From Piedraia hortae CBS 480.64 (Eukaryota), in the NCBI GenBank assembly GCA_010093745.1, contig MU005985.1:1-64000 (forward strand): a DNA stretch of 64,000 nt. Direction: 5' to 3'. The position numbers and the translations under genes were made by a program. This document shows positions 1 through 52,240 of the stretch, piece after piece. The first letter of the stretch is position 1; each line of letters opens with the position of its first letter. Under the pieces are notes generated by a model. That model did no database searches. It saw only the letters and a program-made list of their open reading frames with translations, and had not been told where the DNA came from.

Positions 1-305
1 TCTTGTCTGTTGCCAGGCTCAGAGCGCCCTGCAAGTCAGCGTTCCATGCCTCGAATGGCGTTCCAGCCTTGAGAATGACAGCTCTTTTTCTTTCGTAGCT
101 CATGGTCTCTGGAAGCTCCGCTTTCGCTTCGAGACTCAATTTGAATAGCGCTTGTTAGCGGTAGAGCCCGGGCTCATAACCTATTATAATTGTGAGCAGA
201 TGTGTACCTGCATACAAATCTCTACGGAAAACTAGTTGACGCGTGAAGTCGAGAGCCGAGCGACGGTTACTAATAATGCGCGTAATATACCGCATATTCA
301 CAACA
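1..305 (-). mobile_element. 5' end of a Ty1/copia LTR retrotransposon: short LTR (182-305), primer-binding site (170-181) and start of a gag-like ORF (ATG at 103, running off the window)
   Basis: Minus strand reads TGTTGTGAAT...AATTATAATA followed directly by GGTTATGAGCCC, the copia-type PBS. The LTR end TA is interpretable as a mutated CA. ORF MSYERKRAVILKAGTPFEAWNADLQGAL follows. Confidence 0.65.
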
Positions 306-4440: not shown

Positions 4441-4476
4441 GGGGGTTTGGTATTATCTGATTTTTCTGGTGGAGAA

Positions 4477-4836
4477 AATGTTGGATTCAAGCATCGCTGC
4501 TAGCGCGTATGCGGGGCACTTGCATATCAAGTCAGCGATACCTCCTACACTACCAGCTGCACCCTAGATTTTTCCCTCACAGGTTTTCCCTCAGGTCATG
4601 TCATATGTGACATGGTGAATGCGCCCTGCTAGTGTACGAGGTGACGTCACCGGCCCACCGGCACAGAATTTTCATTCTGACGTCCCCTGATAGTGATAGA
4701 TAGTCATTTCACACTGTCATATCGACACTGGTATTAACGCATATACATCTACATCTGTCCTGTCCTTGATTCCGTCTATCGCTCCTTCCTCTTCGAGTCG
4801 CTGCGCCATCTCACCCACAGGAGCTAAATCTACAGA
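4477..4836 (-). repeat. Copy A of a ~360-bp repeat; inverted copy at 33596-33968; structured 91-nt core at 4477-4567
   Basis: Manual alignment to the reverse complement of 33878-33968 gives 88/91 identity with no gaps. Similarity with indels continues to about 4836. Confidence 0.95.
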
Positions 4837-31021: not shown

Positions 31022-32185
31022 TTAATGCTGTTGCTTACTCCCGTCCTGGGAATCAGCTTGGAATACGTCTTGGTCATCGTCGTCGGAATCTTCTTCATCA
31101 CCGTCTTGAAATATTTCCTCAAAATCGTTCCCGAGATCAAGCATGGCAGCACTTTGGGGTTGATCGTCACACCGCTCAAATGGGTCCACCCGCTCACGCA
31201 GAGGGAGGACGTCAAGTTCTGCTTGTAGTGAGAACCCCCAGAGTTTCTTAAGATTGCAAAAAAGGTTTATCCAATCTGACTCGTCCACGGCGAAGACCTT
31301 TTTGCGGAGCGGCCTGTCGCGTCCCAAAATCACCAGCGTAGACAGCTCGGTCAGCTGGTTGATACATGAGAGCGCGTGCTTGTTCAGCACCGCGTCAGCA
31401 AGGTTTTCATCATCGATCCGCAAGTACATAGTCTTCAGATCAGGTACTGTGCAGAGAGCGGCAAAGAACTCTGGCGACGCATTGGTGAGGGTGACATCAA
31501 CGTGATTCAAGCCGCTCCGCACACGAGCGTAAACGGAGGAGTCGCAGCTACCTAGCCGGCGGTTGGCAAGATCCTGCAGGAGGCACCAGTGCGAGGCCTC
31601 GCTGAGTTGAACAACCTCGATATTTGGTGTTAGAATTGTCGGATTTAGGATATAGGGTGTTTTATCGTCGCTGGAGAGGTATAGGTGCGCGTCTAGCGTT
31701 TTTAGCAGTGGCATCCGGCTCATGAACTTGGCCAGTTTGGAGACCAGAAGCTTGCCACGCTCGGGCTGTTCTACTCCGTCAACGACGTCCGCAGCGAGTG
31801 ATGCGGCATTGAAATCAAGGCATAGCGACCTCACGCGCGGGAACTCTACATCCGTTTCCGCGGGGCTTCCGTCTGCTTCAGTAACGCGCACAAGGTGCTT
31901 AATGCGGTCAGCATATATCTGCTTCCGGCCTGCAGGGACCTGATTTAGCTCGGTTAGACCGGCTGTAGACCATAGAACTTCGGTCCCCGCCTCAGCACAG
32001 TCGCGGCAGACCAGAGTAAAAGCGTACAACGAAGACCAGTCGTCTGCCAAGTATCTGGCAAACTTAAGCAACAGCTCCATTGGCATGTGAATGTTTTTGG
32101 ACTTAGCAAATGAGTTTTTCTTGGGCGTAATGCACTCAATGTCCATGTCTGTGGGACCGCGAACGCTGCGACGCGTCGACTCCAT
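31022..32185 (-). CDS. F-box-like / leucine-rich-repeat-like protein with acidic tail
   Basis: MPMELLLKFARYLADDWSSLYAFTLVCRDCAEAGTEVLW resembles an F-box. LRR-like segments FPRVRSLCL, MPLLKTLDA, VPDLKTMYL, LTELSTLVI. Paralog near 51.1-52.2 kb. Confidence 0.7.
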   Translation of the reverse strand: MESTRRSVRGPTDMDIECITPKKNSFAKSKNIHMPMELLLKFARYLADDWSSLYAFTLVCRDCAEAGTEVLWSTAGLTELNQVPAGRKQIYADRIKHLVRVTEADGSPAETDVEFPRVRSLCLDFNAASLAADVVDGVEQPERGKLLVSKLAKFMSRMPLLKTLDAHLYLSSDDKTPYILNPTILTPNIEVVQLSEASHWCLLQDLANRRLGSCDSSVYARVRSGLNHVDVTLTNASPEFFAALCTVPDLKTMYLRIDDENLADAVLNKHALSCINQLTELSTLVILGRDRPLRKKVFAVDESDWINLFCNLKKLWGFSLQAELDVLPLRERVDPFERCDDQPQSAAMLDLGNDFEEIFQDGDEEDSDDDDQDVFQADSQDGSKQQH

Positions 32186-33595
32186 TGGCGCAGGCAATGT
32201 ACAATCTCGAGCGAGAGTAAGAGCGAGTATGTTTGAAAATGTCATCAAGTGCGTTGTTTGGTAGTTGGGTGTGATGATGGGAGAAGTGTTGGTGTGAAAA
32301 AATCGGTACAACATCGGAGGTGTAGAATGCCAAGCATTTCAATTTTTCCGCATGGGCGAAAACATTGGACCACGGAAAACATGCGCATGAACGTAAGCTC
32401 ATAAGATCAGTAGGTTTAAATGCTATTTACATGATGTACACAATGTCCGCTTGCTTTGCGGAAGTCAAGTATCACCCAGCCGGGTGCGAGAGAATTGTGA
32501 TGATAAAATTCGGCCCCGTAAAGTTTTGCACGCCACGTAAGATGTTTAAGCGACGCAGTGCAAGTACGCGACATGCGACTCCATTTCTCCATCTTCATAT
32601 CCCGCCGCAGTCTATTGTATCGCTTCCCGTGAATCGTCTCCTGGAAGCATGCCCCTAATACTCACAAGACCACACGCCATCTACCACAACTGCGCCACGG
32701 AGACCCTTCTCCGTCATAGTGTCAAGTCCACGTGCTGGCACGCTTGTTAAAGGCTGCTCAGTCATCTCTATCACTCAAGTAGACATTTTTCCCCCTCTAT
32801 AGTCGACCGTCGACACCCCAACATCATCTCCACGCACCTGTACACACCTGGATACGGCTGATACACGATACAACATGCAGGATCTTTATGCCAGATCGCC
32901 CCGCTATCTCCAGATCAGCCTGTATACCCGTGCAGCGTGCCACCTTTCCTCGTTGCAGAACATATATTAGGTCCAACTCTCCTCTAGCCGACCTATCCAT
33001 TCCCTTCTGCTGAAAGAATCCTTCCTTCTCCTGTCAAAGATGCCCCGACTCTTCGTGCCGAGTCGTGAACCCGCGGCTCTAGCATCTTCATCAATGCAAG
33101 TCCGTCTCGCAGTGCGGTGATCCAGCGCTGCTACAGCATCACTAACCTCGTTGGAAAGCCCGCTTCGAGGGGAGGGAGGCATGGTGCCCAGACGGCCGGG
33201 CTGTAGTAAAGTAGCCGTACAATCATCAACAGTGACATGGGCAGAACAACCATTGGGTGCCACCCACCGCGATCTTTTACTTTGACAGCGAGCTTGAAGT
33301 AACGCTTTGATGCCGAACATGTCTAATCAACGACAGCGTTATCGCGGCAGGACTCGGAAGAGGTGTCGATGTCCTGTCAATCGTGTGTCAACGACATGTC
33401 ACTTGTCATGGGCGGATTGGCCGATGAATGGACAAATAAGGTTTCCTGGGGTACAGGGTTCTTAAACAAGGTTTCAGCGAGAGGTATAGAAAACTGGCGA
33501 GTTCTATGAGAGCGTGGTGACGCCATGGATTGTGTTGATCGTAGTTACAACGTAGAGCGCCGAATGGTTCGAGCACATTTCATAGGTATGTCTAG

Positions 33596-33968
33596 TCTGT
33601 AGCGATAGGGCTCTCGTGGACGAGAGTGCGAGCGGCCCGAACTAAGAGGACGAAGCGATAGACGGAGATTGATAAATGGACAGGACAGATGCAGATGGAT
33701 ATGAGTCAATACCAGTGTCGATATGACAGTGAATGACTATCTATCTCAATGAGGGGACGTCCAGAGCAAAAATTCTGTACCGGTGGGCCGGTGACGTCAC
33801 GCCGTACACTAGCAGGGCGCATTCGCCATGTCACATATTACATGACCCTGAGGAAAAAACTCTGTGAAGGAAAAAACCTAGGGTGCAGCTGGTAGTGTAG
33901 GAGGTATCGCTGACTTGCTATGCAAGTGCCCCGCATACGCGCTAGCAGCGATACTTGAATCCACCATT
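33596..33968 (+). repeat. Copy B of the ~360-bp repeat (inverted relative to 4477-4836); core at 33878-33968
   Basis: See copy A. Shared blocks include AATACCAGTGTCGATATGACAGTG and CCGGTGGGCCGGTGACGTCAC. Confidence 0.95.
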
Positions 33969-35023
33969 GTCAACGAATGTCGCCGCATGAAGCAAAGTGG
34001 CGCTCTTGTAGACTCGGGATGGCCTTTGTGTTTGAACACAATTCGCCTTCAAAACTCTCGTTAATGCTAAGGAGCAGCGCAATGCCTCCGAAAAGCTTCA
34101 TATAGTGAAGAAGCTACAATAGTTACATAACGACAATAACATGACGGAGACGCTGATACCTGAATCCACACATTGTGAAATATCCCTGCGAAGCCTATAC
34201 CATGCCGGGTATGACAGAATGGGAATGCGAAAAAAGAACGAATACCAAATTTTGTTTTGAAAGGGCTTACTCTGCCTCGGACCATACCTGCCGAAATCGC
34301 ATGCCAGCATGATCCAGCTTCAGGAGAAGTGTCCCTTGCTTGAAGGTTGAACCAACTGTAGTTGGTTCCAAAAAGTGCTGGTAGACGGTGGTTCATTGGA
34401 GAAGAGGGTCTGGGTCAGCGCGGCTGGCGAAGCATATCTCCCCCATTGGTCCTGTGGACACGGATTAGGCAAGAGATACTTGCGTGTGCCCGTTCTCTGG
34501 CGCTGTTGGTGCGATGCATGGGAGCTAGTATCATTAAATTCTCGCTCATCGACGTGAGTTAAAGATTTGGTCCGGGCGGGATGGAGCCTGTGAACCTTAC
34601 AGAGGGTGAAAGAGGAGAGAGATGCGAGAAAATAGAGAAGGTGGTCCCTGATGTGAAGTGCTTCTCTTTGGTGATGAGGCTGCCGCCTGATGAGCATATT
34701 TGTGGGTACGGGATCCTATCTTGGTTCAATTGAAAATGGCATGGGAGATTGGTCCCTGTGAAGGGATGCAGGAACTACAGTAGGGGAAAGATCTTCCCTC
34801 CAGAAATCGTGTACCTGAGGTTTGCTGTGGGCTTGATGTGAATAACCAAACGTGGGATTTGAATCACCTCATCAGGACTTTTGCTTGATGGCAGGTGGCT
34901 TGGAATATAACGTAATTGAATGTGGAAAAGATTGACACGCTAATTTCATGCCTGCCTGTAAGTCATTTGGTCATCAAAAAGTTACATGTTCTTGTCCTGA
35001 ACTACCCATACATCGTAAACGCC

Positions 35024-37014: not shown

Positions 37015-38303
37015 ATGTCCCACAGAGCCTCAGACCTCATAGCGCCCTTCGTTCTGTGGAAACTTCTCTTGCTCGCTGTAGCTCTGTCATGCCCGGGGCC
37101 AGGCTATGACACTTCCACGGGGATTCTCCATGGTAGTAGCGAAGCAGCTGGCCTCGCCAGGAAGGCTGCCATGCGCTTGACGCGGTGGGATGCTCTTTAT
37201 TTTTCTACAACCGCCGCGAGAGGCCACCTGTATGAGCAGGAATGGGCCTTTAGCTGGCTGCTTTCGAGATTCGTCAGTTCACTAAGCCAAGGTAGGTTAA
37301 CACTCTCGGGTAGCTAAAGCTGATGCATGTAGCCTTGCCTATCACCCAAGATTTGCTCATACAAAATGCCTTGATCGGGAGCCTGGTCGCTTGTGTCTCC
37401 CACGCCTTGGCCGTAGCCACGATTTACAAGGCGACCATCGCCTTGCTCTACTTCCTCCCTTTGCACCATAGGAAACAACTAGCTTATGCCACTGCTGTCT
37501 TTCACATATTCTCCCCGGCGGGCATTATTCTAATGGCGCCTTATGGAGAAGCGCCTTTTGCCCTGCTGCAATTTGTGGGCATGTACTGCTACGTGCGAGC
37601 AGTTAAAGCCAGGGTCGCTAGCAAAGCTGACGCTGTATACTGGACCATTCTTACAGGAATTTGCTTTGCTCTCTCAGCAACGATCAGATCTAATGGGGTA
37701 CTGAGTGGCCTGATCTTCGTCTGGGATCTTGTAGAAGCTCTAGCTCTAGGCGAGGTGAGGGAAGTATTAGCCACCGGCGTAGCAGGCACCATTTTGGCGA
37801 TTGGGTTCGCTTTTCCGCAAGTAATCGCTTTTTACGAATTCTGCACAGATAGCACGCCGCGGCCCTGGTGCTCAGCCGTACCACCTAGTATATACACCTT
37901 CGTACAACGGGAGTACTGGGATGTAGGCTTCCTAAGATACTGGAAGCTGTCAAACCTCCCGCTATTTGCCCTCGCTTTACCTATGGCATGGGTTTTGACG
38001 ACAACAGCATGGCCAGCTCTGGTGCAACCGAGGCGATTCGCTCGTCGTTTGACGAACAGCAATCAATCTGACCACAAAGCCTTTGACATAATCCTTCGTC
38101 GCTTTGCAGTGCCACAACTTGTTTTGGTCTTGTTAGCTTTGACAAGCTTTCACTGCCAAATTATCAATCGCATTAGCTCGGGATATCCACTCTGGTACTT
38201 TTGTTTGGCTATCTCGCAACAGGACCGGTGGCATCTTAGGGCTATGATTACATATGCCCTCGTCCACGCAGGACTGTATGCTGCATTCATGCCTCCTGCT
38301 TAG
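37015..38303 (+). CDS. GPI18: GPI mannosyltransferase 2 (PIG-V)
   Basis: PGPGYDTST, RLTRWDALYF, YEQEWAF, RSNG, PRPWC, YWDVGFLRYW..SNLPLF, QIINRISSGYP. A 41-nt intron at 37292-37332 joins the two ORFs in frame. Confidence 0.93.
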
Positions 38304-40179: not shown

Positions 40180-41971
40180 ATGGTGCTTGGAACCATCATC
40201 GGCCTTTGTTTGGCCACCTTTGTTTGCGTATCCTATGGAGCTGCAGCAACTAGACCACGCAATGTTAGGGATCCTGATCGTGTGCATGGTCCTCGGAACA
40301 GACACCATTGAGGTGGTGACTACGATGTTACCTCTGATTTTGATTTAGTGCCATACCACTATTAGGCCTTCAGTTACTGAAATTGTTTCAGAAAGTTCCC
40401 AATCACGAAGAAGGTTGTCACTTATGACTTGAGCATCACAAACAGCACCTGCGACCCTGATGGCAATGGACCTAGGCCTTGTATGCTGATCAATAATCAG
40501 TATCCTGGTCCTACTATCCGTGCCAGCTGGGGCAATCTTTTAATCGTAAATGTACAAATCATGCTGGAAAACAACGGGACCAGCATTCACTGGCATGGTG
40601 TTCGCCAATTGTACAGCACAGTGTCAGACGGGACTGGCGGAATTACCGAGTGCCCGATTGCTCCGGGCGACTCGAAGACATACAGCTTCCGGGTGACCCA
40701 ACTTGGGACATCGTGGTATCACAGCCATTTTTCCTCACAGTACGGAGACGGAGTCCTTGGTCCCATCATCTTCGATGACCCAGCAACAGCCAACTATGAC
40801 GAAGGCCTGGGCCCGTACATACTCAATGGCTGGTACTACCAGACTACCTTTCAGATCAACTCGATAGCGTTGCTGCAAAGTTTACAGACGCAACCTCCGT
40901 CTATACCACCCGCAGGGGACAATATCTAGATCAATGGCACCAACGTCAAAACAGCTGTGGTGGTGGTCAATATGGGCGAGCCAAACTTCAATCGGGTAAA
41001 AAGTATCGCCTGCGCCTCATCAACAGTGCTGTAGACAACTTCTACTATGTTTCGCTCGACAAACACCCTCTACAACCCATCGCTAGCGATTCTAACCCAA
41101 TCGAACCCATTGTGGTGGAAACCCTATTGGTTGCCATCGGCCAGCGTTATGATGTTATCATCGATGCCACGCAAACGCCAGGAAACTACTGGTTCCACGC
41201 CGCAGTTGCCACACCGTATGGTTCTAGAAATGGTAATTGGGAGGGTAGATCCATCTTCACATACGAAGGTGCCAACTTTACCGAGCCCACCAGCACCAGA
41301 TACGTTCCGCCTCAGCCTTGTGACGACTTGCCGAATCTCACGCCTCACTGGAAGCAGTCCGTGCCACGGGAAGGTTTCGAAGCTTCCCCCGGGGAGATGG
41401 ACATCGATATCAAGGAGATGTCTCCCACATGCAACGGCGATATGGTGGCGGCCTGGACGCTGGGCGATGTCCCCTTGAACATTGAATGGAACAATCCCAC
41501 ACTGCAGTATGTATTGAATGGCAGTTTTACTTTCCCGCCACGGTACAACATGTAACCAACGGCAGAAGCCGGTAAATGGAACTTTTGGATCATTCAGCCA
41601 GCTAACAGTAACGCCCCACCAGCGGCGCACCCAGTCCACTTGCACGGCCATAAATTCTTTGTCCTCGGTCAGCGCGCCAACGACCACTTTAACAGCAACT
41701 CAATCGACTCTCTTGACTTTGACAACCCTCCACGCCGTGATACTGCCACCATACCGCCCAAAGGCTGGATAGTGATTGCTTTTCCCACAACCCCGGCGTC
41801 TGGCTTCTGCACTGCCACACCGCCTGGCACGTGGCCGACGGCTTCGGGAACCAGTTCCTCGAGCTTCCAGAGCAGATTAGAGTCGACAGAGCTGCATTCG
41901 ATAAAACCTGCACTAACTGGAGAAACTATATCAAGAGAGACAGAGTTCAGAAGCAAAATTCGGAGTTGTGA
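40180..41971 (+). pseudogene. Laccase pseudogene, tandem paralog of 43121-44950
   Basis: Copper motifs HWHG, WYHSH, HPVHLHGH and HCHTAWH remain, but there are stops at 40309-40311, 40927-40929 and 41553-41555 plus frameshifts. C-terminus is NSEL instead of DSGL. Confidence 0.9.
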
Positions 41972-43120: not shown

Positions 43121-44950
43121 ATGAAATTTCAAGCCCTCACATGCCTTTGCCTGGTCAGTTATGCTTCCAAATCTTATGGATATGCATTGCCTGCTCCACT
43201 GGTTGCTCCACTGGCGATCAATCCACTTCAAGGACCCCAAGCTGATAACTCTTCGTGTGTATATGGTCCTAACAACAGACAATGCTGGGCCAGTGGTTAC
43301 AGTGTTGATGCCGATTTTGACCAGTAAGTGGTTTGATATAATCATCGATTCGTTTACTGATGGAAGTTCAGAAACTACCCAATCACCAATGGCACTGTTG
43401 TGTACAATTTGACGATCACTAACAGCACCTGCAATCCTGATGGCAATGGCCCTAGGCCTTGTATGCTGATCAATAATCAGTATCCTGGTCCTACCATTCG
43501 TGCCAGCTGGGGTGATCGTCTTATCATTAATGTACACAACCAGTTGCAAAATAATGGGACCAGCATCCACTGGCATGGTGTTCGTCAGCTGAACAGTACA
43601 GAGTCAGATGGTGTTGGCGGTATCACCGAGTGTCCAATTGCTCCGGGCGACTCGAAGACATACAGCTTCCGGGTGACCCAATTCGGGACGTCGTGGTATC
43701 ACAGCCACTTTTCCTCGCAGTACGGCGACGGAGTCATTGGGCCTATGATCTTTGAAGGACCAGCATCAGCCAACTATGATGAAGACCTGGGTCCTTATAT
43801 GCTCAACGAATGGTACTACCAGACTGCCTCCCAAATCAACTCGATAGCGATGAAGCTTTTGCAGACAAATCCTCCGTCTCTCCCACCTCCAGCAGACAAC
43901 ATCCTCATCAACGGCACGAATATTAACCACAATGGCGCTGGCAATTACGGGCGAGTTAGCATGCAGGCCGGCAAGAGGTATCGTTTGCGCCTCATCAACA
44001 GTGCGGTGGATAATCACTATCACGTCTCGCTCGACAACCACAACATGACAATTATCGCCAGTGACTTCATCCCAATCAACCCCATCACCGTTACGACTTT
44101 ACTCATCGCCATTGGACAACGTTACGATGTAGTCATCCACGCCAACCAGAGGCCCGGAAACTACTGGTTCCGAGCAAGCGTAGCCCAGGAGTGCGGCTTT
44201 GACAACAAGCAACTCGAGGGCCGATCAATCTTCACTTACAACAACATCACCTTCGCCGAACCAAACACCACAGCATACACGTGGCCACGCACCTGCGATG
44301 AATCCATGCGTCTCGAACCAACATGGTACCAACCTGTACCAAGCGACAGCTTCATCCAAACGATCCAGCAAATGGACGTCAACCTCACGAGCGTGAACCC
44401 CCCCTTCAACGGCGACATGGTCAACGCCTGGACTTTAGGCGGCTCGCCCCTGAACATCGAATGGGACAGACCAACCCTCCAATACATCCTAGACAACAAC
44501 TCAAGCTACCCACCACGCTACAACGTGCACACGACCCGGAGCCGCAACGCATGGAACTACTGGATCATCCAACAAGGTCCCGGAGCACCGCCAGCAGCGC
44601 ATCCCATCCACCTCCACGGCCACGACTTCTTCGTCCTGGGTCGGCAAGATAACTCCACGTTTGACCGCACCTCGTCAGTCAGCCTTCTCAACTTTAACAC
44701 CCCGCCGCGGCGCGATACCGCAACCGTGCCCTCTAGGGGCTGGATGGTTATTGCGTTCCCGACGAATAACCCCGGCGCGTGGCTCATGCATTGTCATATT
44801 GCGTGGCATGTTGCTGGGGGTCTGGGGAGTCAGTTTATCGAACTGCCCGGTGAGATTACGGTGAACAGAGATGCGTTTGATCAGACGTGTAAGAATTGGA
44901 AGGAGTATGTTGCGAAAGATGCGGTGCAGAAGGAGGATTCGGGTTTGTAA
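43121..44950 (+). CDS. Secreted laccase (multicopper oxidase, AA1)
   Basis: Signal peptide; HWHG, WYHSHF, HPIHLHGH, HCHIAWH; ascomycete C-terminal DSGL. Intron 43324-43371 restores the frame. Confidence 0.96.
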
Positions 44951-46010: not shown

Positions 46011-47363
46011 TGGTACTGGTGTTCGAAAGGGCGTTTGGTTTGTTTGATGAGATGGTTAATGGTTCACTTCAGCAGGCCCCTGGCTTGATATCATTGTGTA
46101 GACATTAGCTACTTACTGAATCTGTAATAGTCAGTTTTCCTCTTCGTGAACAGTAGAAGTCGCTATTCGATCATCAGATAGGCATGAATGGTAATAAATG
46201 GTTGTCTCGGCATGGCAGAGAGCCAATAAGACTCGTCATCAAGTATCATCATGACATCGGTGAAGTAAATGCTCAAGACTTACCCTGCTTTCTGTCAGCC
46301 ATTGTTGCGTAAGTGTATCGTACAGGTAAATGGGTGCATCAGTGGACGAGGTTTTCTAGGCCTGTCAAAAAGCGGCATGTCGCTCATATAGATTCGGAGC
46401 CCAGTGCCAATTCATCACACAAGTCTTTGTGGAGAGGTTTTGCTTACAAGATAATATTGAAGGGGTGCTATCCTTCGTCAAGTCGTCATCGTGTGAAGCT
46501 GATTAATGTTAGCAGACATTCTGCACGAACATCTAGGATACTGCAAGGTATTCTCAGAAAAACAGGCCTGTCAAAGCCATTTCATCAATGCAGTCAACTG
46601 CTATGTCGACCGTCGTGAGATGTTTTAGAATTCATCATGTTAAGAAAGTAAAGCAGGGTATGACCTTACCATGATTTGCGTCGGACAGCTCTAGCTGCAA
46701 TCGTTAGCCAAGTTCAAACAACATAGTCCACCCAAAGATTAAAGATCAGAATATCGAATCTCGTCTTAGCCGTGACCAGCTTGGACATATGCTTGTCTTT
46801 TGATGATGTTTCATCACGCAAAAGGTTGGGTGTGTAACGCTTACACTGTACACTGCTATCCTTATCCTGCAACAGTTAGCTCCGCTAAAACCCTCAAAGT
46901 TGCAGATGCAGGATGCAGGTATTCGATCAGACAGGCCTAAGATGTCCGCAAAGACGAAGAGTCTCAGTCGGTAATTCCATGTATAGCGTATATGTTTGGT
47001 GTTCATCACGAGAAGGAGGGACAAGGCTGAGCGCTTACCAAAGTGACTTGCATCTGCCGATTGTTAGCGCTGTCGCAAACAGATTGACAATGAGCTTTAC
47101 GTGCAATCAGACTGACGTAGCATGAGTTTCATACCCCGAAGGATCAAAGACTCTAGTTTGTTTGCGGTTTGCTATTTCATCATGGAGGGGCGGAGGGATA
47201 GAACTTACGCTGTACGCTTGTGTGCTACGCGTTGGTGTGGTGCAGATAAAAGTTGCGGAAGAATTTCTGGCCGGCAGTTCCGCGGCAAGCTTGGCGTTGG
47301 CCTGAGGCATCAAATATGACGTCACTCAGACAGCCAACACGAGGGCTGCGAGTGAAGACGCCC

Positions 47364-51129: not shown

Positions 51130-52240
51130 TGAACCAGACCTCCAGCATCTTGAAGTTGATCATCGCATCTCTCAAAGGGATCTACCCGCTCACATAGGGC
51201 AAGAACATCGAACTCCGCGTTCAGGGAAAACTCCCATAACTTCCCGAACTTCACGAAGCGGTCCACCTAGTCTGCGTCGTCGACAGCGAAGACTCTTCTC
51301 CGGAGCGGCCGATCGCATCCCAAGATCGCCAGCGTTGACAGCTCAGTCAGCTGGCTGATACATGAGAGCGCGTGCTTGTTCAGCACCGCGTCCGCGAGGT
51401 TTTCGTCGTCAATGCGCAGGTACGTACATCGTCTTCAGATCAGGTACTGTGCAAAGAGCGGCAAAGAATTCTGGTGATGCATTGGTTGGGGCGACATCGA
51501 CGTGATTTAAGCCGCTCCGCACGCGGGCGTAGATGGAGGAATCGCAGCTGCCTGGCCGGCGGCTTGCGAGATCCTGAGGGAGGCACTAGTGTGAGGCCTC
51601 GCTGAGTTGGACAACCTCGTTATTTGACGTCAAGATTGATGAGACCAGAACGTCTGGCGTCTGGCAATGTTCTGCAAGAGGTTCCAGTGGGTGGCCTCAT
51701 TATGGTGGACTACTTCATATTTGGTGCCGAGATTGATGAAACCAAGATGTCTGTCGTTTTGCCATCGTTTAAGAAGACCCTGGATGCGCACCTCTAGGTA
51801 GAGACGCGCACCTAAGGTCTTCATTGTCTGCAATTGTCTCATAAACGCGGCTAGTTTAGAGTCCTGGACGCTACCTACCAAGGGCGTTTCACCTTCTTCG
51901 ACAACGCCCTTGCTGAGTGTGCGGCATTGACGAACTGACTAGTGGAGACCACACTCCCGTCTCCGCAAGGTCGCTGTCCACCTTCGTCGTACGCAGAAGG
52001 TGTTTGATGTGGTTGGCGTAATTCCGCTTATGCCCCATATAGACACGATTCAGCTCCGCAAGGCCGGCTGTGATTTACAAGACTTTGCTTCCCGATCCGG
52101 CCCAGTTACGGCTGATCCTGGTGATGGCGAACGAAGAAGGCCTGTGGCCTTACAAGCAGCCGGAGAATCCGAATAGAAGCTCTGTTGGAATATGGGTTTT
52201 CTTAGACATTGCGTCGGAGTTTGAATTGGGCCATGTCAAG
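51130..52240 (-). pseudogene. Pseudogene paralog of the F-box-like gene at 31022-32185
   Basis: About 51270-51625 aligns closely with about 31275-31626, e.g. the shared TGATACATGAGAGCGCGTGCTTGTTCAGCACCGCGTC. In-frame TAG codons replace Trp codons and there is a frameshift near 51420-51430. Confidence 0.88.

What the first reader, a model, noticed from the sequence alone, without database searches (positions are those of the whole stretch)
33878..33968. Duplicated 91-nt core folding into a three-way junction: candidate unannotated structured ncRNA or element terminus
Seen: this core and its inverted copy (4477-4567) are 88/91 identical without gaps, while the adjoining ~270 bp of the same repeat has many substitutions and indels. 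On this strand GTATCGCTG pairs with CAGCGATAC and encloses two hairpins, ACTTGC-TAT-GCAAGT and CGC-ATAC-GCG. One of the three differences turns a U-A pair into a tolerated U-G pair on this strand only. TAGTGTAGGAGG resembles a Pol III A box, CTTGAATCC a degenerate B box, and copy A is followed by TTTT. Inference: the uneven conservation suggests selection on a small tRNA-like Pol III RNA duplicated with its upstream region, or on a structured transposon end. I cannot match it to any RNA family I know.
Basis: partly seen in the sequence, partly recalled or inferred. Interest (0 to 1): 0.7.

Follow-up and report, generated by a model that had tools for sequence, protein, structure and literature searches.

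The report
U3 end of fungal Copia LTR
The two near-identical 91-base stretches are one end, read backwards, of leftover terminal repeats (solo LTRs) of a jumping gene scattered through this fungal genome, so the duplication is real but ordinary, and the proposed folded small RNA finds no support.

Summary
The 88/91 match is real. Both copies are the first 89 bases (U3 end, read antisense) of ~360-bp solo LTRs of a Ty1/Copia family: window 33598-33966 (-) and 4479-4834 (+). A 20-mer from the core occurs 224 times in the 16.9-Mb genome. Of 82 near-full copies, 75 end TG...CA and 38 have perfect 5-bp target duplications (null 0.17%). One 5,027-bp element between two such LTRs has gag, protease-integrase-RT, a polypurine tract and a 14-nt half-tRNA(iMet) primer site, all on the strand opposite the finding. 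The ncRNA reading fails: no Rfam or tRNA match, three-way-junction probability about 1e-7, no covariation, B box in 0/82 copies, and the TTTT is target-site DNA. The core is the most conserved part of the family, but only in subfamily-level variants (5/69 vs 72/280 columns). Single-copy mutations hit it at the normal rate, so the constraint likely acts on transposing masters, not on host copies. Conservation highest at U3 is unusual and unexplained. An ENE-like U-rich hairpin begins at the core's edge on the element strand. Earlier scan notes report similar solo-LTR cores and ENE-like hairpins elsewhere in this genome.

The parts
33598..33966 (-). Solo LTR, copy B (369 bp) of a Ty1/Copia family; element sense is the minus strand; 5' end TGGTGGA (family TGTTGGA), 3' end CTACA
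   Evidence: orientation from the full-length element in L047
33878..33966 (-). The finding's core: LTR positions 1-89 (distal U3, including the integrase end motif); most conserved block of the family
33593..33597 (+). Target-site duplication, left copy TAGTC
   Evidence: 4/5 match to 33967-33971
33967..33971 (+). Target-site duplication, right copy TTGTC (holds the last two bases of the finding)
33845..33884 (-). ENE-like hairpin (lower stem, facing U-runs, short upper stem), partly decayed in this copy; its 5' stem strand overlaps the first 7 bases of the finding; function untested
33792..33799 (.). TGACGTCA palindrome (CRE-like, name recalled), present in 66 of 82 copies; candidate promoter element of U3
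4479..4834 (+). Solo LTR, copy A (356 bp), same family, different subfamily cluster; TGTTGGA...CTACA
4479..4567 (+). Core of copy A (LTR positions 1-89)
4474..4478 (+).
4561..4596 (+). Decayed ENE-like hairpin of copy A

Best explanation
The 91-nt core is the U3 end, read antisense, of two independent solo LTRs of a multi-copy fungal Ty1/Copia retrotransposon family, and it likely stays uniform because of constraint or homogenisation in the transposing source elements rather than selection on these copies. Shown: family membership, termini, 5-bp target duplications, orientation, a full-length element with Copia domain order, primer site and polypurine tract, and the split between subfamily-level and single-copy variation. 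From established retrotransposon biology: an element was reverse-transcribed from a cleaved initiator tRNA, integrated with a 5-bp duplication, and later lost its interior by LTR-LTR recombination. Inferred: the first ~10-15 bp are held by integrase recognition next to the polypurine tract; the remaining ~75 bp would be held by a cis role in the element (upstream promoter DNA in the 5' LTR, or 3'-UTR RNA leading into the ENE-like hairpin in the 3' LTR), or by exchange of this block among subfamilies. Copies A and B are decaying relics.
For: 224 matches of a core 20-mer vs 1 control; 40 near-full-length matches among 396 candidates, 40 scored. Of 82 near-full copies (337-409 bp), 75 end TG...CA and 69 start TGTTRNR, the integrase motif given in PMC3601003 (passages). 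Perfect 5-bp duplications in 38/82 and 4/5 in 8/82, against 0.17% and 1.8% for mismatched flank pairs. G000:C3:100446-105472(-) is a 5,027-bp element between two such LTRs, with PF14223 gag, then PF22936, PF00665, PF25597, PF07727 in Copia order. Its primer site is a perfect 14-nt complement to three host tRNA-Met(CAT) genes up to sequential position 39, and GAGGGGGAC precedes the 3' LTR. Nearest pol relatives are Copia-type polyproteins, best 52% over residues 560-1050, named from Exophiala dermatitidis. Core diversity 0.056 vs 0.093, 0.158, 0.157 further along. Singletons 46/5649 vs 163/22076 (P=0.55); columns with shared variants 5/69 vs 72/280 (P=0.0006). Between the three largest subfamily clusters the 3' half differs by 12-20% and the core by 4-6%.
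Against: Only one full-length element was found. Its LTRs differ at 38/358 sites, all beyond position 96, and its flanks do not match, so it is a recombinant; the link between LTR family and interior rests on this one copy. The window copies have imperfect duplications (4/5 and 3/5). 36 of 82 copies match at 3/5 or less. In the 31 copies chosen by whole-LTR similarity alone, the shared-variant contrast is weaker (5/69 vs 47/280, P=0.058). [quoted passage not shown]
Confidence: 0.93

Rival explanations
1. The LTR carries a captured, degenerate tRNA-derived Pol III unit on its antisense strand (Helenus-like), which would make a small RNA or recruit TFIIIC.
For: A loose A-box-like pattern is met in 70/82 copies on the finding's strand. 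A cloverleaf-like fold can be drawn with D-arm and anticodon-arm spacing; 97.3% of cells pair, and 1/500 shuffles reach its number of pair types and 9/500 its covariation score. Precedent: Helenus LTRs hold tRNA-like sequence, also in fungi (PMC10886601, passages).
Against: That cloverleaf was drawn by me from the sequences, and its signal rests on 2 single-copy double transitions among 1132 cells; C>T is the commonest change (425 of 1042). Best local alignment to 29 distinct host tRNA sequences equals chance (54% of shuffles score as high). No Rfam or ARAGORN hit. Helenus box A (TRGCY..YGG) 0/82 and box B (GGTTC) 0/82 in the core on that strand. The B-box look-alike overlaps the integrase end motif TGTTGGA.
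Confidence: 0.04
2. The core is a host-selected structured ncRNA or ribozyme (three-way junction) that was duplicated.
For: Core more conserved than the rest of the repeat; outer stem pairs with probability 0.70-0.95 on the finding's strand, and its commonest variants are wobbles on that strand.
Against: Junction probability about 1e-7; median z -0.06 (finding strand) and +0.72 (element strand) over 21 copies. Covariation score reached by 144/500 shuffles, 1 double change in 1273 cells. Rare variants hit paired and unpaired sites alike (66/2864 vs 73/2785, P=0.49). Singleton rate equals the rest of the LTR. Hammerhead CUGANGA in 4/82 LTRs on one strand, 0 on the other. RNAalifold gives a different, weak consensus (-8.6 kcal/mol).
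Confidence: 0.02
3. The core's uniformity is purely historical: one U3 block spread through several subfamilies by template switching or gene conversion, with no special function beyond the terminal bases. This concerns the cause of conservation only and is compatible with the solo-LTR identity.
For: The full-length element's 3' LTR is a mosaic that switches partner within or just after the core. Four neighbouring inverted LTR pairs have swapped target duplications, which shows recombination between copies. Core differences between subfamilies (4-6%) are about the same as within the older subfamilies (5-7%).
Against: The one clear core variant (position 35) tracks subfamily (21/22 in the youngest cluster vs 1/14 and 1/11), so the block is not freely shuffled; recombination may follow from the identity rather than cause it.
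Confidence: 0.35

Closest known systems
Solo LTRs of Ty1/Copia (Pseudoviridae) retrotransposons primed from the tRNA-iMet anticodon stem-loop: Ty5, Drosophila copia (genus Hemivirus)
   Same: TG...CA ends with TGTTGGA start (Ty1: TGTTGGAATA, PMC3601003), 5-bp duplications, integrase before RT, primer site pairing to the anticodon arm of tRNA-Met (Hemiviruses start at nucleotide 40, PMC1181622), solo LTRs far outnumber full elements.
   Different: No tree with Ty5 or copia was built, and half-tRNA priming does not define one clade (PMC1181622). Conservation is highest at the U3 end. The one full copy has gag and pol in one frame with a single stop between them.
Fungal Copia clades GalEa and FunCo1 (Donnart et al. 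2017, PMC5445492)
   Same: Copia elements of filamentous ascomycetes; GalEa has TGT...CA LTRs and 5-bp duplications.
   Different: GalEa lacks a primer site (hairpin instead) and has QTDD in RT; FunCo1 has ATTAAGAGTCT. This element has GGTTATGAGCCCGG and YVDD (read), so it fits neither.
Helenus and Cassandra TRIMs with Pol III promoters in their LTRs (Kojima 2024, PMC10886601)
   Different: Helenus boxes are recognisable (TRGCY, YGG, GGTTC) and the interior is tiny; here the boxes are absent, would lie antisense, and the interior is a 4.3-kb coding region.
ENE triple-helix elements of KSHV PAN RNA and of plant and fungal retrotransposons (Evade ENE, PMC12501189; review PMC13541005)
   Same: A U-rich internal loop closed by G-C pairs between two short stems, on the element's RNA strand and upstream of where the poly(A) tail would be, at LTR positions 83-122.
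   Different: It lies beside, not in, the finding (7-base overlap); single-domain; decayed in both window copies; triple-helix formation untested.

Membership tests
Solo LTR of an LTR retrotransposon | TG...CA termini with short inverted end motif | tested here: met
   75/82 TG...CA, 69/82 TGTTRNR
Solo LTR of an LTR retrotransposon | 4-6 bp target-site duplication around one LTR | tested here: met
   38/82 perfect 5-bp, null 0.17%; window copies 4/5 and 3/5
Solo LTR of an LTR retrotransposon | Same repeat occurs as a direct pair around a gag-pol interior | tested here: met
   L047 1947-6973; one case only, and a recombinant
Ty1/Copia (Pseudoviridae) | Domain order gag-PR-INT-RT with RVT_2-type RT | tested here: met
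   Pfam PF14223; PF22936, PF00665, PF25597, PF07727
Ty1/Copia (Pseudoviridae) | Primer site after the 5' LTR and polypurine tract before the 3' LTR | tested here: met
   14-nt complement to host tRNA-Met; GAGGGGGAC
Hemivirus (Ty5/copia type) | Primer site complementary to the tRNA-iMet anticodon stem-loop, ending at nucleotide 40 | tested here: met
   Pairs to sequential position 39, which is standard position 40 because the D-loop has 7 bases (numbering recalled)
Hemivirus (Ty5/copia type) | RT phylogeny with Ty5 or copia | not tested
   No tree built; reference sequences were not fetched
Fungal GalEa | No primer site, conserved hairpin site; QTDD in RT | tested here: not met
   Primer site present, YVDD
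FunCo1 | Primer site ATTAAGAGTCT | tested here: not met
Helenus-type Pol III TRIM or tRNA-derived SINE | Box A TRGCY..YGG and box B GGTTC | tested here: not met
   0/82 and 0/82 in the core on the finding's strand
Helenus-type Pol III TRIM or tRNA-derived SINE | Detectable similarity to tRNA | tested here: not met
   (29 distinct sequences from 30 of 60 listed host tRNA loci plus 3 Met loci)
Helenus-type Pol III TRIM or tRNA-derived SINE | Pol III occupancy or transcript | not testable with these tools
   Only assembled contigs of one run were available
Structured ncRNA or ribozyme | Covariation supporting one fold | tested here: not met
   copies are ~95% identical, so power is low
ENE element (adjacent hairpin) | U-rich internal loop with flanking G-C pairs between two stems, on the RNA strand | tested here: met
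   My descriptor is met in 42/82 copies on the element strand, 0/82 on the other, 0/2000 shuffles (descriptor written after seeing the sequence); not met in either window copy
ENE element (adjacent hairpin) | Covariation in the stems | tested here: inconclusive
   88% of cells paired, 24/500 shuffles reach the score, slid controls show as many double changes
ENE element (adjacent hairpin) | Triple helix with poly(A) and RNA stabilisation | not testable with these tools
   needs melting and reporter assays as in PMC12501189

The most novel reading that the evidence does not exclude
The distal 89 bp of U3, almost unchanged across subfamilies that differ by 12-20% in the 3' half of the LTR, is an undescribed cis-acting module of fungal Copia elements: either a 3'-UTR RNA or protein-binding element working with the adjacent ENE-like hairpin, or a degenerate tRNA-derived antisense Pol III or TFIIIC site.
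Probability: 0.12. Interest if true: 0.5.

Novelty: new member of a known kind. Interest (0 to 1): 0.14.

Why it matters
It removes a false ncRNA candidate: a conserved core in two copies of a repeat can come from constraint on the transposon's source lineage, which a singleton-versus-shared-variant count separates from host selection. What remains of interest is modest: a reversed LTR conservation gradient, a candidate single-domain ENE in a fungal Copia LTR, and local rearrangements between neighbouring LTRs. If the frozen block proved to be a cis module, it would give a small testable handle on how fungal Copia RNAs are expressed or stabilised.

Tried and rejected
Rfam: whole window at gathering thresholds gave only two snoRNAs elsewhere; 33500-34200 at E<=5 and 33870-33975 at E<=10 gave nothing. 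ARAGORN: no gene in the window. tRNA ancestry: chance-level. Helitron, SINE or MITE ends: rejected on TG...CA termini, 5-bp duplications and the gag-pol element. Pairing of the core with the primer tRNA (bipartite primer site, recalled from Ty3) or with the element's 5' region: no better than shuffles (57-94% of shuffles as strong); pairing with the 150 nt upstream reached 2% of shuffles, one of five tests, not followed up. Coding constraint: pol ends about 146 nt before the 3' LTR. RIP-type bias: C>T rates similar in CA, CC, CT and CG contexts (0.024-0.039). Homologues elsewhere: one exact 23-mer scan of metagenome contigs found 0; the genome has no relatives in the tool; earlier-findings search by sequence found nothing. 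Expression: no RNA holder listed on record. The one run, X1, has a GT..AG joint at 37289-37331 and so looks like RNA, and holds contigs matching the LTR, but contigs give no strand, ends or level, so I draw nothing from depth. Candidate direct LTR pairs at C7 and C20 have their own duplications or unmatched flanks, and none of the 16 interior matches falls at those places. The primary ENE survey (Tycowski 2016) was not available; I rely on PMC12501189 and PMC13541005.

Full report
Observation. The two stretches are 88/91 identical without gaps, with differences at 33918, 33953 and 33964. They belong to a longer inverted repeat, which differs at 38 of 262 aligned sites outside the core against 3 of 89 inside (P=0.004). 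The window is fungal: it holds snoRNAs matching Afu_513 and snR75 and a PIG-V gene. The proposed three-way junction is not the predicted fold: z -0.51 and -0.43 for the two copies, energy -21.1 against -29.7 kcal/mol and probability about 1e-7, with only the outer stem well populated.

A dispersed family. A DNA search of the own genome (16.9 Mb) gave 396 candidates, 40 scored, 43 matches. A core 20-mer with up to 2 mismatches occurs 224 times against 1 for the control. I fetched 30 loci, 60 regions around places from the 100 listed and other stretches. These gave 161 BLAST hits, 123 distinct, of which 82 were near full length with both ends in view; 41 partial or edge hits were dropped. A few of the 82 are segmental duplicates of each other (L019, L046, L058). 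Lengths are 337-409 bp, 75/82 end TG...CA and 69/82 start TGTTRNR. Five-base flanks match perfectly in 38/82 and at 4/5 in 8/82; mismatched flank pairs give 0.17% and 1.8%. These are solo LTRs. Copy B is 33598-33966 (flanks TAGTC/TTGTC) and copy A is 4479-4834 (GAAAA/GAATC). No interior sequence lies in the window.

The parent element and the strand. Integrase and RVT_2 matches share a 1058-aa frame at G000:C3 between two copies of this LTR. The element is 5,027 bp (C3:100446-105472, minus). It carries a 304-aa gag (PF14223), then protease-region, integrase, SH3 and RT domains in Copia order. GGTTATGAGCCCGG follows the 5' LTR and is a perfect 14-nt complement to three host tRNA-Met(CAT) genes up to sequential position 39, the Ty5/copia type of priming (PMC1181622, passages). 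GAGGGGGAC precedes the 3' LTR. All of this reads on the strand opposite the finding, so the core is LTR positions 1-89, the U3 end, read backwards. Its 'B box' overlaps TGTTGGA, the integrase end motif (Ty1 TGTTGGAATA; PMC3601003, passages). Nearest pol relatives are Copia-type polyproteins at 52% or less, many with gag and pol in one frame (120 of 1360 hits listed). Caveats: this is the only full copy found (16 matches, the others 66-86% fragments); its LTRs differ at 38/358 sites, none in positions 1-96, its 3' LTR equals a neighbouring inverted copy over 42-225, and its flanks do not match. It is a recombinant. Its 5' LTR is 0-2% from several solo LTRs with perfect duplications.

Why the core is uniform. 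The pair A/B is not special: mean core difference is 5.0, and 1125 of 3321 pairs differ by 3 or fewer. Mutations seen in one copy only are as frequent in the core as elsewhere (46/5649 vs 163/22076, P=0.55), while columns with variants shared by 5 or more copies are rare (5/69 vs 72/280, P=0.0006). Split by how copies were chosen, singleton rates stay equal (P=0.60, 0.54); the shared contrast is strong in the 51 others (1/69 vs 55/280) and weaker in the 31 similarity-chosen copies (P=0.058). Subfamily clusters differ by 12-20% in the 3' half and 4-6% in the core. I infer that copies decay neutrally after insertion and that the block is held in the source lineages. PMC3601003 says R and U5 are generally the more conserved parts, so this gradient is unusual. 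Integrase recognition explains only the terminal 8-15 bp (same paper). The rest is unexplained; promoter function, a 3'-UTR role, or exchange among subfamilies remain open.

Tests of the RNA reading. Power is low at 95% identity. One result leans the other way: a tRNA-like cloverleaf that I drew scored 1/500 on pair types and 9/500 on covariation, but this rests on two single-copy double transitions. Rfam and ARAGORN find nothing, alignment to 29 host tRNA sequences is at chance, and the box motifs that define Helenus LTRs (PMC10886601, passages) are absent from the core on that strand (0/82 each), although a loose A-box pattern is met in 70/82.

An adjacent ENE-like hairpin. Earlier scan notes (e1-7586356 and e1-7646274) pointed to ENE-like hairpins in LTRs of this genome. 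I tested this. On the element strand, positions 83-122 form a stem, facing U-runs and a short upper stem; my descriptor is met in 42/82 copies, 0/82 on the other strand and 0/2000 shuffles (written after seeing the sequence). Young copies fold this way (z -2.46, -1.69); the window copies are decayed (z -1.46, +0.76). Covariation is inconclusive. ENEs are known in plant and fungal LTR elements and stabilise Evade RNA (PMC12501189, first fifth of the text; PMC13541005, passages). The first 7 bases of the finding are the antisense of its 5' stem strand.

Comparison and verdict. It works like, and on the tested features is, a solo LTR of a Ty1/Copia element with anticodon-loop priming. It does not fit fungal GalEa or FunCo1 (PMC5445492, passages and section 10); no tree was built. 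I did not search repeat libraries, so whether this family is already catalogued is unknown; six literature searches were for features, not for this family. Supplements were not read. Earlier notes describe similar solo-LTR cores elsewhere in this genome. Verdict: real observation, ordinary object, new member of a known kind; interest 0.14.

Noticed in passing
L004; L058 with L019 (C109); L044; L059: Four pairs of neighbouring, oppositely oriented LTRs have swapped target duplications (two of them reciprocal at 4/5); 4 of 5 exact cross-matches among 36 unmatched copies are between neighbours. This suggests small inversions by LTR-LTR recombination. Window copies A and B show no swap.
   Followed up: partly
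L047:5630-5632 (-): gag and pol of the one full-length element lie in one frame with a single stop between them, as in Tca2 of Candida albicans (PMC2194720, abstract). Many close relatives have one open frame and no second copy covers the junction, so lesion or programmed bypass is undecided.
   Followed up: partly
window 1-305 (-): 5' end of a second, very young Copia family cut by the contig start: 124-bp LTR (182-305, 98-100% identical to several other copies), the same tRNA-iMet primer site at about 168-181, and a likely gag start.
   Followed up: partly
G000 contig ends: Many of the 67 primer-site 10-mer matches lie within a few hundred bases of contig ends, which suggests that young element interiors are collapsed or missing in the assembly.
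   Followed up: no
L047:2329-2428 (-): The 3' UTR between pol and the polypurine tract folds with z about -5 (sense) and -6 (antisense) in a C/U-rich stretch; one copy only.
   Followed up: partly
window 46172-46422 (-): Two adjacent C/D-box snoRNAs, snR75 and Afu_513, over Rfam thresholds.
   Followed up: no
window 40429-41196 and 43409-44171; 31147-31638 and 51143-51638: Two local direct duplications at 70-86% identity, likely paralogous genes.
   Followed up: no
window 37289-37331: A 41-base GT..AG skip in run X1 at the start of the PIG-V gene, a very short intron.
   Followed up: no
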